Origin: a virus
DNA length: 20,808 bases
Virus genome (UHGV): UHGV-0102213
Reading direction: 5' to 3' (one strand)
Shown here: piece after piece, positions 16,764-16,888 of the stretch
Numbering within the stretch: the first letter of the stretch is position 1
How the letters are laid out: each line of letters starts with the position of its first letter
Made by a program: the position numbers and the translations under genes
The notes under the pieces: model-generated
Told to the model about the DNA's origin: nothing
What the model saw: the letters and a program-made list of their open reading frames with translations, nothing else
Databases searched by the model: none

Positions 16764-16888
16764 TGTGGCGACCGGAATCGAACCGGCTTCCATCGGTGCG
16801 CTGCCGATTGCAGTACGCGCGGCGGTCAGCTACATGACTAGTATTTTCACTATCGCCTATCTGCTAGCTCGCCATTGAGCTTCACCAC
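16764..16888 (-). ncRNA. About 125-nt tRNA-like structured element in the late leader; not a canonical tRNA gene
   Basis: Minus strand GTGGTGA...TCGCCACA forms a 7-bp acceptor-like terminal stem (one G-U pair). It has a D-arm-like hairpin (GCTC-AATGGC-GAGC) and a T-arm-like hairpin (CCGG-TTCGATT-CCGG), but about 50 extra nt and no canonical anticodon arm. Confidence 0.3.

What the first reader, a model, noticed from the sequence alone, without database searches (positions are those of the whole stretch)
16764..16888. 125-nt tRNA-like structured element in the late leader between tR' and the holin
The element is closed by a 7-bp acceptor-like stem (GTGGTGA / TCGCCAC) and contains D-arm-like and T-arm-like hairpins, the latter with a TTCGATT loop. 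It is about 50 nt too long, the D-arm is offset by one position, the T-stem is only 4 bp, and there is no canonical anticodon arm. It could be a degenerate or interrupted phage tRNA (lambdoid phages often carry tRNA genes exactly here), or a tRNA-derived structured leader RNA. The flanking sequence resembles the lambda late leader from recall.
Basis: seen in the sequence. Interest (0 to 1): 0.5.

Follow-up and report, generated by a model that had tools for sequence, protein, structure and literature searches.

The report
Five-armed tRNA-like phage RNA gene
Between the late-gene switch and the lysis genes of this E. coli prophage lies an unannotated, strongly conserved RNA gene that looks like an arginine tRNA with one extra arm, is shared by many unrelated enterobacterial phages, and probably pairs with itself into a dimer; what it does is still unknown.

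Summary
The finding is real, but it lies on the minus strand and is larger and better organised than described. Window 16891-16762(-) is one copy of a conserved, unannotated phage RNA family. It is a tRNA cloverleaf: a 7-bp acceptor extended to at least 9 bp, a D arm, an anticodon-like arm, a 4-nt variable loop and a T arm with a UUCGAUU loop. A 55-nt extra arm (P3) sits between the D and anticodon arms, and a covarying hairpin (P0) precedes the domain.

ARAGORN and Rfam find nothing, and the MFE is unremarkable (z -1.1). However, 53 distinct copies from E. coli, Salmonella, Klebsiella, Enterobacter and Pantoea phages keep 98% of 31 pairs, 15 of them with compensatory changes. One D-loop and one T-loop pyrimidine co-vary. 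With P3 deleted in silico, ARAGORN calls tRNA-Arg(GCG). The P3 apical loop always holds a self-complementary hexamer (six different palindromes), which predicts a kissing-loop homodimer.

The cassette replaces, with identical flanks, the tRNA-Asn/tRNA-Thr pair of phage 21, whose tRNA-Thr counters P2-OLD. It also heads tRNA operons in Skatevirus phages and fills the RNase III stem of N leaders.

Best reading: a trans-acting, tRNA-Arg-mimicking stable RNA, probably anti-defence cargo. The function is unproven.

The parts
17054..17542 (-). Q antiterminator gene (phage 21 type)
   Evidence: 162-aa ORF. PHROG 943 'anti-termination protein Q-like', E = 1e-88. Flank identical to phage 21.
17012..17047 (-). 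Late promoter pR': -35 TTGACA at 17047-17042, Q-binding element ATTGAGCA/AATGAGCA at 17039-17024, start site about 17012
   Evidence: Base-for-base identical to the annotated features of phage 21 OL657228. The generic sigma-70 scan does not call it.
16963..17010 (-). tR' terminator of the late leader
   Evidence: Identical to the annotated phage 21 terminator. Also annotated Tr' in HK75.
16895..16962 (-). 5' part of the cassette: CACAAC (16962-16957) and hairpin P0, with arms AAGAGCAUUG (16952-16943) and CAGUGCUCUU (16904-16895) around a variable interior
   Evidence: Arms conserved while the interior varies. The arms covary between phages: GAGAGUAUUUA/UAAGUACUCUC, GGUAAUGGCACUG/CAGUGCCAUUACC, AAAUCAAUU/AGUUGGUUU, AAAUCGCUUUG/CAAAGCGAU (read by eye; no formal count was made).
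16760..16893 (-). tRNA-like domain (whole covariance-model match). Closing helix P1 = 16891-16883 with 16770-16762; its inner 7 bp (16889-16883 / 16770-16764) are the acceptor stem.
   Evidence: Model R1 scores 148.7 bits, E = 5e-32. P1 is paired in 97.7% of cells, with 5 of 9 pairs showing compensatory change, including the pair between position -1 and the 'discriminator'.
16866..16881 (-). D arm AGCUC-AAUGGC-GAGCU (loop 16876-16871, with G18 G19)
   Evidence: Nearly invariant. The loop pyrimidine before GG co-varies with T-loop position 59: U/U in 34 sequences, C/C in 26, no exceptions among 60.
16810..16864 (-). Extra arm P3: basal stem GCAG/CUGC, conserved internal loop AUAG (16860-16857) / GCGCGUA (16820-16814), upper stem, 20-nt apical loop
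   Evidence: Basal and middle stems covary: GC/CG/AU/UA types, 5 of 7 pairs with double changes. The upper 3 bp covary by eye: UAG/CUG, CAG/CUG, CUG/CGG, CCG/CGG, UCG/CGA.
16837..16842 (-). Self-complementary hexamer ACUAGU in the P3 apical loop (predicted kissing-loop dimerisation site)
   Evidence: Seven hexamers occur at this column in 53 distinct copies. Six are perfect palindromes (ACUAGU, UCUAGA, UCGCGA, GCUAGC, ACCGGU, UCCGGA) and one is palindromic with G-U (UCUGGA). 100% of cells are self-complementary against 71.6% in shuffles, 0 of 500. No second copy lies within +/-400 nt in 50 of 53 copies.
16792..16808 (-). P4, the anticodon-like arm AUCGG-CAGCGCA-CCGAU (loop 16803-16797), followed by the 4-nt variable loop GGAA (16791-16788)
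   Evidence: The stem covaries in copies found through a D-arm anchor: AUCAG/CUGAU, AUAGG/CCUAU. Loop positions 32-34 vary (C/U, A/U, G/U), while C35 G36 C37 A38 never do. 12 of 17 bases match host tRNA-Arg(ACG), whose sequence was verified.
16771..16787 (-). T arm GCCGG-UUCGAUU-CCGGU
   Evidence: 99.2% paired, with 3 of 5 pairs showing compensatory change. This arm gives the only Rfam signal, a weak tmRNA-clan hit of 13.4 bits against a gathering score of 47.
16426..16641 (-). S21-type class II holin, first gene downstream of the cassette
   Evidence: 71-aa ORF. PHROG holin families, E = 6e-35. Identical flank to phage 21 S.

Best explanation
Window 16962-16760(-) is a functional gene cassette for a previously undescribed family of phage tRNA-like RNAs. 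It is not a decayed tRNA.

Shown here:
- The RNA folds as a tRNA cloverleaf. It has a 7-bp acceptor plus a 5-bp T stem, a D arm with GG, a T loop UUCGAYU, and a 5-bp/7-nt anticodon-like arm whose C35-G36 are invariant.
- An additional conserved 55-nt arm is inserted at position 26/27.
- The closing helix is extended outward beyond the acceptor.
- The apical loop of the extra arm always carries a self-complementary hexamer.
- The cassette moves between unrelated enterobacterial phages. It sits where phages keep tRNA genes. Here it replaces the tRNA-Asn/tRNA-Thr pair of phage 21, downstream of pR'/tR', so it is transcribed only when Q antiterminates.

Inferred:
- It adopts the L-shape with a normal D-loop/T-loop elbow.
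- It is cut out of the late transcript by the tRNA-processing enzymes (RNase P plus 3' trimming; RNase III in the N-leader copies), yielding a stable RNA of about 130 nt.
- Two molecules join through the P3 loop-loop kiss.

Most speculative step:
- With A33 and C37 it cannot decode.
- It may instead act in trans as a mimic of the tRNA-Arg anticodon arm that titrates a host factor which reads tRNA-Arg.
- That factor is most plausibly a tRNA-targeting anti-phage nuclease. The cassette would then be anti-defence cargo, like the tRNA genes it replaces.
For: Structure: an unbiased RNAalifold run returns the five-helix fold. 97.6% of cells are paired in 26 copies and 98.2% in 53 copies, against 31-46% for slid partners; 12 and 15 pairs carry compensatory changes; 0 of 500 shuffles match.

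Elbow: D-loop Y16 and T-loop Y59 switch together, U/U in 34 and C/C in 26. The switch recurs between close relatives: L013 vs L009, L018 vs L019, L031 vs L035.

tRNA ancestry: ARAGORN calls tRNA-Arg(gcg) in 10 of 31 copies after in-silico removal of P3, and in none of the native copies. P4 matches host tRNA-Arg(ACG) at 12 of 17 positions. The anticodon is GCG or UCG, both arginine.

Not coding: single-base indels lie inside the conserved core.

Dimer: six different perfect palindromes occur at one loop position, 100% self-complementary, with no cis partner. The site is predicted 0.8-0.9 unpaired in most type-2 arms.

Gene-like behaviour:
- Clean allelic replacement of the phage 21 tRNA pair, with identical flanks.
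- Own TTGACA-17-TAGATT promoter in Skatevirus.
- Sits directly upstream, on the same strand, of tRNA-Arg(UCU), tRNA-Met or tRNA-Ile in five phages, with a 3-nt gap in L131.
- Lies inside the homologue of the lambda N-leader RNase III stem, upstream of N genes.
- No protein gene is a constant neighbour.

Anti-defence context: the phage 21 tRNA-Thr in this very slot protects against P2-OLD. That nuclease cuts tRNA anticodon stems and its substrates share an invariant A37. Arg tRNAs are among those cleaved (PMC12445682). Phage tRNAs evade such nucleases through anticodon-loop changes (PMC10264068, title and abstract).
Against: - There is no expression, processing, dimerisation or phenotype data.
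- The single-sequence fold is not more stable than shuffles.
- No CCA is encoded, and the nucleotide at the discriminator position is base-paired with covariation. This is unlike a normal RNase P/aminoacylation substrate and would fit an RNA that stays embedded in a longer transcript.
- In several P3 type-1 variants, including this window's, thermodynamic folding partly buries the palindrome: unpaired probability about 0.35 for the window-type arm (scored on L007, whose P3 sequence is identical) and 0.2-0.65 across type-1 arms.
- All copies come from one bacterial family and many are more than 90% identical, so pair counts include shared ancestry and recombination.
- The decoy idea rests on location and resemblance only. 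No arginine-tRNA-specific defence nuclease was linked to it here.
- The P2-OLD motif (CNG at nt 28-30 and 40-42) is not present in register in P4 (UCG / CGA).
Confidence: 0.5

Rival explanations
1. Cis-acting leader element. The tRNA-like fold is a processing or stability signal that stays part of the mRNA. RNase P or RNase III would cut there to separate the antitermination leader (nutL, or the pR'-tR' RNA) from the N or lysis message, or the compact fold would protect the downstream mRNA 5' end.
For: Most lambdoid copies lie in operon leaders. Some follow tR' and precede the holin gene. Others lie between nutL and N, exactly inside the outer stem that lambda uses as its N-leader RNase III site (the role of that stem is from my knowledge of the lambda literature). 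P1 is extended and paired beyond the acceptor, as expected for an embedded domain.
Against: In Skatevirus-type phages the element has its own promoter and is followed by tRNAs and a terminator, with no mRNA to regulate. In Klebsiella prophages it lies in the intergenic region between the convergently... opposite-strand portal and terminase genes. An invariant anticodon-loop C35-G36-C37-A38 and a maintained loop palindrome are not needed for a cleavage signal.
Confidence: 0.2
2. A true decoding tRNA-Arg whose extra arm is tolerated, or is removed after transcription. It would supplement arginine decoding (CGY or CGR) during late infection.
For: ARAGORN accepts the P3-deleted sequence as tRNA-Arg(gcg). 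Both anticodon variants, GCG and UCG, are arginine, and the ArgRS identity bases C35 and G36 never change (the identity rules are from my knowledge). It is found next to tRNA-Arg(UCU) and occupies tRNA slots.
Against: A33 replaces the near-universal U33 in all but one lineage, and C37 replaces a purine in all copies. No CCA is encoded, and position 73 is paired. No bacterial mechanism is known that excises an arm at position 26/27. P3 carries conserved features of its own. E. coli already reads CGU/CGC with four copies of tRNA-Arg(ACG).
Confidence: 0.07
3. A degenerate or interrupted tRNA pseudogene, hitch-hiking in the mosaic late region without function.
For: ARAGORN and Rfam reject it. The fold energy is ordinary. 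In HK629 the interior has been replaced while the flanks persist, so the locus can decay or be overwritten.
Against: The domain is conserved at 75-99% across phage groups that share no other DNA. Compensatory changes occur in every helix that varies, a tertiary co-variation is present, and a loop palindrome is maintained. 175 of 5426 complete E. coli genomes carry an intact copy.
Confidence: 0.03
4. A DNA-level element: a recombination or integration target (tRNA-like att site), or a protein-binding palindrome, conserved as DNA rather than as RNA.
For: Integrases often target the T-arm to 3'-end segment of tRNA genes (general knowledge). Mosaic junctions fall exactly in the two strands of P1 in HK629 and in the N leaders. 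The hexamer is palindromic as DNA too.
Against: G-U pairs are tolerated in one orientation, and compensatory (not identical) changes occur in five helices. Both point to selection on one RNA strand. The palindrome changes sequence six times, which would destroy a protein site. No integrase or mobile-element gene is a constant neighbour.
Confidence: 0.05

Closest known systems
Phage tRNA genes in the lambdoid late leader (phage 21 tRNA-Asn/tRNA-Thr; also Sf6, L, SfI)
   Same: Same slot and same flanks, immediately after tR' and before the holin gene (PMC8022706). Same cloverleaf framework. Model R1 even scores phage 21 tRNA-Thr at 18 bits with P3 treated as a deletion. The phage 21 tRNA-Thr is experimentally an anti-P2-OLD device (PMC12445682).
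   Different: This RNA has a fifth arm, A33/C37, a paired 'discriminator' and no CCA, and tRNA finders reject it. It therefore cannot replace a cleaved tRNA in decoding.
Phage T4 species 1 and 2 stable RNAs (rnaC, rnaD)
   Same: Phage-encoded RNAs of about 120-140 nt and unknown function, sitting in a tRNA cluster directly after tRNA-Arg. rnaC ends in an acceptor-plus-T-arm module that R1 scores like a tRNA (14 bits). This is the nearest precedent for a 'tRNA-like stable RNA carried with phage tRNAs'.
   Different: No specific sequence or structure homology: the score is no better than for ordinary T4 tRNAs. No evidence was seen there for a D arm, the P3 palindrome or the P4 loop.
tmRNA tRNA-like domain
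   Same: Acceptor plus T arm, with the anticodon side replaced or extended by other RNA. This is the only Rfam clan that gives any signal (13.4 and 11 bits).
   Different: Far below the gathering scores (47 and 84). The element has a real D stem and anticodon-like arm, and has no tag reading frame, no pseudoknots and no encoded CCA.
Bacterial Y RNA YrlA (tRNA-mimicking module bound to Rsr/Ro60)
   Same: A non-decoding RNA that copies the tRNA elbow, with conserved D and T arms and no free CCA end (from my knowledge of Chen et al. 2014 and Wang et al. 2018; not re-read here).
   Different: In YrlA the ends emerge from the anticodon side and the acceptor is capped by a loop. Here the strand order is that of a tRNA. 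There is no Rfam Y-RNA hit and no rsr gene nearby.
Lambda N-leader RNase III hairpin
   Same: Type-B copies sit between nutL (boxA/boxB) and N. They are closed by GCUUUGGGGUGUGGUG / CACCACACCACCAAAGC, which is nearly the lambda stem GGCUUUGGGGUGUGUG / CACACACCACCAAAGC.
   Different: The lambda interior is unrelated: no R1 hit. The window copy is in the late leader, with only a 9-bp closing helix.
Kissing-loop dimerisation sites and natural RNA homo-oligomers (HIV-1 DIS; OLE, ROOL, GOLLD)
   Same: A 6-nt self-complementary sequence in an apical loop whose sequence drifts while staying palindromic, as in HIV-1 DIS subtypes (my knowledge). Natural bacterial and phage RNAs that assemble through kissing loops are now documented (PMC12286853 and PMC12990946; abstracts seen).
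   Different: Dimerisation here is predicted from covariation only. The monomer is small (about 130 nt) and tRNA-shaped.

Membership tests
tRNA | Cloverleaf with 7-bp acceptor stacked on a 5-bp T stem, 4-bp D stem, 5-bp anticodon stem with a 7-nt loop | tested here: met
   With position 1 at 16889: UGUGGUG/CGCCACA, GCUC/GAGC, AUCGG/CCGAU, GCCGG/CCGGU. All are supported in 53 copies.
tRNA | Only four arms (plus an optional variable arm 3' of the anticodon arm); length about 72-95 nt | tested here: not met
   A conserved 55-nt arm is inserted between the D stem and the anticodon-like stem. The domain is 130 nt.
tRNA | U33 and a purine at 37 in the anticodon loop | tested here: not met
   The loop is C/U-A-G/U-C-G-C-A. 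A33 is present in all but one lineage (L142 has U), and C37 is invariant.
tRNA | Recognised by tRNA finders and by the Rfam RF00005 threshold | tested here: not met
   ARAGORN finds 0 genes in the window and in native copies. Rfam gives no tRNA hit even at E <= 10. ARAGORN calls tRNA-Arg only after P3 is deleted in silico.
tRNA | Single-stranded discriminator plus CCA 3' end (encoded or added) | tested here: not met
   The base at position 73 pairs with -1 (UA 28, GC 14, AU 8), and 74 pairs with -2. No CCA follows in the window (AAUCC) or in most copies. Post-transcriptional addition is not testable here.
tRNA | D-loop/T-loop elbow (G18 G19 with the T loop; variable-pocket neighbours 16/59) | tested here: met
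   GG and UUCGAYU are invariant. Y16 and Y59 co-vary without exception in 60 sequences. The contact in three dimensions is inferred.
tmRNA | tRNA-like domain joined to pseudoknots and a tag reading frame; Rfam RF00023 gathering score 47 | tested here: not met
   Only the T arm and 3' strand align, at 13.4 bits. ARAGORN finds no tmRNA.
YrlA / bacterial Y RNA | Ro-binding terminal stem, permuted tRNA-like module, linkage to rsr | tested here: not met
   No Rfam Y-RNA-type hit. The strand order is that of tRNA. Neighbouring genes are Q/holin, cI/N, tail, portal/terminase or HNH.
T4 rnaC/rnaD stable RNAs | Homology to T4 species 1 or 2 RNA | tested here: not met
   R1 scores rnaC at 14.0 bits, the same range as T4 tRNA-Ser (16.5) and tRNA-Ile (13.9). 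rnaD gives only T-arm-size fragments.
T4 rnaC/rnaD stable RNAs | Placement within a phage tRNA transcription unit | tested here: met
   L131, L005, L081, L098 and L044 have the element followed on the same strand by tRNAs. In the window it takes the place of two tRNAs.
Kissing-loop homodimer elements | Self-complementary stretch of at least 6 nt in an apical loop, kept palindromic through sequence change | tested here: met
   Six perfect palindromes plus one with wobble. 159 of 159 cells are self-complementary; 0 of 500 shuffles match.
Kissing-loop homodimer elements | Physical dimer formation | not testable with these tools
   Needs native gels, SEC-MALS or cryo-EM. Accessibility predictions are mixed: 0.8-0.9 for most type-2 arms and 0.2-0.65 for type 1.
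Lambda-type N-leader RNase III hairpin | Long stem between nutL and the N ribosome-binding site | tested here: not met
   This holds for type-B relatives but not for the window copy, which lies in the late leader with a 9-bp P1. The lambda interior gives no R1 hit.

The most novel reading that the evidence does not exclude
The RNA is a self-assembling, RNA-only tRNA mimic. Two (or more) L-shaped tRNA-Arg look-alikes, joined through the P3 kissing loop, would act as a non-cleavable, non-decoding decoy. The decoy would inhibit a tRNA-anticodon-arm-targeting immune nuclease of the OLD/PARIS/PrrC/Schlafen kind. This would be a new anti-defence strategy: inhibition by a tRNA decoy rather than replacement by a resistant tRNA. 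It would be carried as a swappable cassette in the same genomic slots as anti-defence tRNAs.
Probability: 0.15. Interest if true: 0.85.

Novelty: new variant of a known kind. Interest (0 to 1): 0.68.

Why it matters
Phage tRNAs have recently been recast as counter-measures against tRNA-cleaving immune systems. This family would add a non-decoding, tRNA-shaped RNA to that arsenal.

It is also a small, tractable candidate for a natural RNA homodimer. It is present in about 3% of complete E. coli genomes (including ST131-type strains) and in about a hundred sequenced Salmonella phages. Even so, it is absent from Rfam 15 and from RefSeq annotation, or is mis-annotated as 'hypothetical protein', 'polyubiquitin-A' or a 58-nt 'tRNA-Ser'.

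A covariance model now exists to annotate it. The palindrome gives an immediately testable prediction: mutants should lose the dimer, and compensatory pairs of mutants should restore it. The cassette exchange with the phage 21 tRNA-Thr suggests which defence systems to test first.

Finally, tRNA finders miss structured tRNA derivatives, and an energy z-score alone would have discarded a real RNA.

Tried and rejected
- **tRNA finders and Rfam.** ARAGORN on the window and Rfam at gathering and at E <= 10 gave only weak tmRNA-clan T-arm hits, so the element is not a member of any curated family.
- **Single-sequence folding.** z = -1.1, uninformative.
- **Lambda N-leader interior as a diverged relative.** No R1 hit; only the outer stem is shared.
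- **T4 rnaC/rnaD as homologues.** Scores are no better than for ordinary tRNAs.
- **Pseudoknot between the P4 loop GCGC and the invariant GCGCG of the P3 internal loop.** Both are nearly invariant, and the few variants (L133 GCACG, loop AUCGCA) do not compensate (by eye). Unsupported.
- **Local hairpin UAGUG-AAAA-UACUA inside P3 (seen in the MFE).** There is no covariation for it, whereas the long-range 3-bp stem covaries.
- **Antisense ORF (window 16666-16878(+), 70 aa, TTG start; annotated as a protein in some records).** Rejected because of 1-nt indels in the core and the RNA-type compensatory pattern.
- **Weak R1 hit at window 20538-20680(+), 14.7 bits.** No tRNA-like features on inspection; it scores in the range R1 gives ordinary tRNAs. 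I take it as chance.
- **GTDB species-representative scan.** Only 3 loci, one of them a coliphage-like contig binned as Cellvibrionaceae. No evidence for the family outside Enterobacterales.
- **Full-text searches.** Searches for the sequence itself and for descriptions of such an RNA found nothing.
- **Not run.** The metagenome scan, a formal pair count for P0, and tRNAscan-SE (not available).
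Full report
**Where it is**

The window carries the late-regulation and lysis region of a lambdoid prophage, on the minus strand:
- A 162-aa Q antiterminator gene (17542-17054; PHROG 943, E = 1e-88).
- An intergenic region of about 410 nt.
- An S21-type holin (16641-16426), a 116-aa ORF of unknown function, an endolysin and an Rz spanin.

An alignment with the fully annotated phage 21 genome shows base-for-base identity from Q through the late promoter. This covers the -35 at 17047-17042, the Q-binding element at 17039-17024 and the start site at about 17012. 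Identity continues through the terminator tR' (17010-16963), and resumes from 16758 down to the holin gene. Between those two points phage 21 has tRNA-Asn and tRNA-Thr. The window instead has a cassette of about 205 nt that contains the finding.

**Checking the observation**

The oddities it listed come from placing the acceptor one base too far 3'.
- Relatives show that the proposed A7-U pair is not conserved. That U (or C) instead pairs with the G that opens the T stem, giving a 5-bp T stem.
- With U16889 as position 1 the acceptor is UGUGGUG/CGCCACA. Two linker bases, AA, follow, and the D stem is the standard GCUC/GAGC.
- A 5-bp/7-nt hairpin, AUCGG-CAGCGCA-CCGAU, sits exactly where an anticodon arm should. 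It is followed by a 4-nt variable loop and the T arm.
- The surplus length is a single 55-nt arm, here called P3, inserted between the D stem and the anticodon-like arm, here called P4.

**What standard tools say**

- ARAGORN finds no tRNA or tmRNA in the window.
- Rfam 15 finds nothing at gathering thresholds. At E <= 10 it finds only a 13.4-bit tmRNA match to the T arm, against a gathering score of 47.
- The MFE (-43.1 kcal/mol) is within the shuffled distribution, z = -1.11.

On these tests alone the finding would be dismissed.

**Comparative evidence**

Similarity searches changed the picture.
- The same 142 bp occurs at about 95% identity in roughly a hundred Salmonella phages of the Skatevirus group (Skate, Seszw, Akira, vB_CECAV_048). 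These share nothing else with a lambdoid prophage.
- It also occurs in HK75, at about 80% identity in Salmonella phage gmqsjt-1, and in Pantoea phage PdC23.
- Two exact-pattern scans of IMG/VR gave more than 120 loci and 73 distinct versions. One scan was anchored on P4 and one on the D arm.
- 175 of 5426 complete E. coli genomes carry it, always without annotation.
- Only three GTDB species representatives do: Klebsiella, Enterobacter, and a misbinned coliphage-like contig.

**The consensus structure**

RNAalifold on a plain MAFFT alignment of 26 diverse copies predicts a five-way junction:
- A closing helix P1 of at least 9 bp.
- A D arm.
- P3.
- P4.
- A T arm.

Pair counts on that alignment give 97.6% of cells paired, against 33-43% with slid partners. 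Twelve pairs carry changes on both sides, and 0 of 500 shuffles match. I built a covariance model, R1, from a trimmed alignment. It scores the window copy at 148.7 bits. Its alignment of 56 copies (53 distinct) gives 98.2% paired and 15 compensatory pairs.

P4 looked invariant only because the first scan was anchored on it. D-arm-anchored hits show compensatory changes in its stem (AUCAG/CUGAU, AUAGG/CCUAU). Single-base indels inside the conserved core, and this pattern of change, exclude the antisense ORFs that some GenBank records annotate here.

**Evidence that it is tRNA-shaped in three dimensions**

- G18 G19 and the T loop UUCGAYU are invariant.
- The D-loop pyrimidine preceding GG and T-loop position 59 are either both U (34 sequences) or both C (26), with no exception.
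- Both states occur within each sub-family. The paired switch separates close relatives: L013/L009, L018/L019 and L031/L035.
- Positions 16/17 and 59/60 are neighbours in the 'variable pocket' of the tRNA elbow (textbook tRNA structure, from memory). This is what a real elbow would produce.

**Evidence for tRNA-Arg ancestry**

- When P3 is deleted in silico, ARAGORN calls a 73-nt tRNA-Arg(gcg) in 10 of 31 representatives. It calls nothing in the native sequences.
- P4 matches the anticodon arm of host tRNA-Arg(ACG) at 12 of 17 positions. I verified that host sequence against all 5426 genomes.
- Loop positions 32, 33 and 34 vary (C/U, A/U, G/U) while C35, G36, C37 and A38 never do. The 'anticodon' is therefore GCG or UCG, both arginine.
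- A33 and C37 violate the two most constant features of decoding loops.
- No CCA is encoded.
- The base at the discriminator position is paired to position -1 with abundant covariation: UA 28, GC 14, AU 8.

I therefore do not file it as a tRNA.

**The extra arm**

P3 has four parts:
- A covarying basal stem (GCAG/CUGC, GGG/CCC, GUGU/ACAC).
- A strongly conserved asymmetric internal loop (AUAG opposite GCGCGUA).
- A covarying upper stem.
- An A-rich apical loop of about 18-20 nt.

At one fixed position in that loop, every one of 53 distinct copies has a self-complementary hexamer: ACUAGU (here, 16842-16837), UCUAGA, UCGCGA, GCUAGC, ACCGGU or UCCGGA, plus UCUGGA, which is palindromic with G-U. 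No other 6-column window shows more than two palindromic variants. Treated as three 'pairs', 159 of 159 cells are complementary against 71.6% in shuffles (0 of 500). The types are AU/UA/GC at the outer pair and UA/GC/CG/UG at the inner, adjacent, pair.

Adjacent bases cannot pair within one molecule. In 50 of 53 copies there is no second copy of the hexamer within 400 nt. The simplest reading is loop-loop pairing between two molecules, as in retroviral dimerisation sites. Predicted accessibility is high in most type-2 arms (0.8-0.9). It is lower and variable in the type-1 arm present here, at 0.2-0.65, so this remains a prediction.

**Genomic contexts**

1. Late leaders of phage 21/82-like prophages and HK75, after tR'.
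2. N leaders. The element sits between a lambda-type nutL (boxA plus boxB) and N genes, downstream of cI-like repressor genes. It is closed by a long stem that is nearly identical to the lambda N-leader stem on both strands, although the lambda interior is unrelated.
3. Skatevirus-type phages.
   - The element has a TTGACA-17-TAGATT promoter.
   - It is followed on the same strand by tRNA-Arg(UCU), tRNA-Met(CAU) or tRNA-Ile, with a 3-nt gap in L131.
   - The unit ends with a terminator.
4. Klebsiella and Enterobacter prophages. The element lies between portal and terminase genes. Alternatively it lies after an HNH endonuclease gene and before lysis genes, with the Rfam sRNA STnc100 just downstream.

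No protein gene is a constant neighbour. In contexts 1, 3 and 4 the domain is preceded by CACAAC and a hairpin, P0, whose arms covary while its interior is free. The upstream CACAAC can pair with the GUUG that also forms the outer part of P1, so P0 and P1 may compete. I did not test this further.

**Interpretation**

The cassette behaves like a phage tRNA gene. It is mobile between unrelated phages, placed in tRNA slots, co-transcribed with tRNAs and independent of any protein partner. Yet it cannot decode.

The most economical mechanism has four steps:
- Q-dependent transcription from pR'.
- Folding into an L-shape.
- Excision by the enzymes that process the neighbouring tRNAs (RNase III in N leaders).
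- Dimerisation through P3.

This would be followed by a trans-acting role that depends on the invariant tRNA-Arg-like anticodon loop.

The literature adds a pointed clue. The phage 21 tRNA-Thr(UGU) that occupies this very slot protects against the P2-OLD nuclease. P2-OLD cuts anticodon stems of several tRNAs, Arg among them, and its substrates share an invariant A37 (PMC12445682). Phage tRNAs in general evade tRNA-targeting defences through anticodon-loop changes (PMC10264068; PMC11464382).

A tRNA-Arg look-alike with C37 and A33 could bind such an enzyme without being cut or entering the ribosome. This decoy step is inference from location and resemblance only. I give the whole chain about 0.5 and the decoy step itself about 0.15-0.2.

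The main rival is a cis-acting processing or stability element, favoured by the paired extension of P1 and the leader locations (0.2).

**Comparison with known RNAs, and novelty**

The element shares its framework with tRNAs, but four defining features were tested and not met. The closest functional precedent is the pair of T4 stable RNAs rnaC and rnaD. They follow tRNA-Arg in the T4 tRNA cluster and are still of unknown function. R1 shows no specific homology to them. tmRNA, YrlA and the lambda N-leader hairpin each share one aspect only.

The family is absent from Rfam 15 and unannotated in RefSeq. I found no paper that prints its sequence or describes it. The library searched is incomplete, so prior description cannot be excluded.

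I rate it a new variant of a known kind: a phage tRNA-like RNA with two unprecedented traits, a fifth arm at position 26/27 and a maintained dimerisation palindrome.

**Caveats**

- All evidence is comparative.
- The sequences come from one bacterial family, and many are close relatives that exchange modules by recombination. This inflates cell counts, although the slid-partner control, which keeps relatedness, is unambiguous.
- The P0 covariation and the upper P3 stem were judged by eye.
- E-values from R1 are rough.

Noticed in passing
L149:413-536 (phage HK629), aligned to window 16893-16760: HK629 keeps P0 and both strands of the closing helix (GTTGTGGTGAA ... CCGGTCGCCACAATCC). Its interior is an unrelated stretch of about 100 nt in place of the D arm, P3, P4 and the T loop. 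P1 therefore acts as a 'socket' or recombination boundary for exchangeable RNA modules. CUS-3, Huey, E212 and JEP4 show similar two-piece matches.
   Followed up: partly
L127:380-500(-) (lambda N leader) versus L008:7880-8050: Type-B copies of the element sit inside an outer stem that is almost identical to the lambda N-leader stem, flanked by the same nutL and N ribosome-binding-site sequences. The lambda interior is unrelated. The classic lambda hairpin and this tRNA-like RNA are alternative fillings of one stem.
   Followed up: partly
L015:7060-7262(-): The Rfam sRNA STnc100 (55.7 bits, gathering score 47) lies about 80 nt downstream of the element on the same strand, ahead of the holin and endolysin genes of an Enterobacter/Klebsiella-type prophage.
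   Followed up: no
L035:9770-9950, L031:2475-2650, L129 and L023 (upstream of the element): A GC-rich stretch of about 150 nt is conserved immediately upstream of P0 in these prophages (TAGCGGTCCGGGG...CAGCGGGTAGCCGGAATGTG...CATCGTGGCGGT). There is no Rfam hit in L035. It could be another structured RNA in the same transcript.
   Followed up: no
L023, P0 interior (about 13550-13570): The variable interior of P0 in this copy contains a perfect T-arm-like hairpin, CAGAG-TTCGATT-CTCTG. Other P0 interiors (L005, L133) contain GGTTCGA-like strings. P0 may be the remnant of a second tRNA-like unit.
   Followed up: no
window 16071-16421(-): A 116-aa ORF is wedged between the S21 holin and the endolysin. 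It matches PHROG 406 and related families (E = 2e-67), all of unknown function, and looks like a moron inside the lysis cassette.
   Followed up: no
GenBank records ON470589, ON470594, PV340546, NC_054639, PQ186186 (hits H3, H4, H8, H24, H19): The element is annotated as 'polyubiquitin-A', as 'hypothetical protein', or as a 58-nt 'tRNA-Ser' covering only P4 plus the T arm. RefSeq E. coli genomes annotate nothing there.
   Followed up: yes
L128 (JAUVQU010000080.1, 'Cellvibrionaceae' MAG): This 9.7-kb contig carries a coliphage-type pR'/tR' region plus the element, nearly identical to E. coli prophages. It is probably misbinned or a contaminant.
   Followed up: no
L148:1909-2248(-) (phage T4): In T4 the two stable RNAs of unknown function (rnaD, then rnaC) directly follow tRNA-Arg. 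rnaC contains the string GUAGCG twice, once in a hairpin loop, which recalls the UAGCGCA loop of P4. This is probably coincidence.
   Followed up: partly
L001:3150-3215: In Skatevirus vB_CECAV_048 the element is followed by a 13-bp inverted repeat (CTTAACATCCAGC ... GCTGGATGTTAAG). Related phages have a tRNA gene in that downstream stretch. The stem may mark a tRNA insertion or deletion site.
   Followed up: no
window 20538-20680(+): A weak match to model R1 (14.7 bits, E about 0.05). It shows no tRNA-like features on inspection, and I take it as chance.
   Followed up: partly
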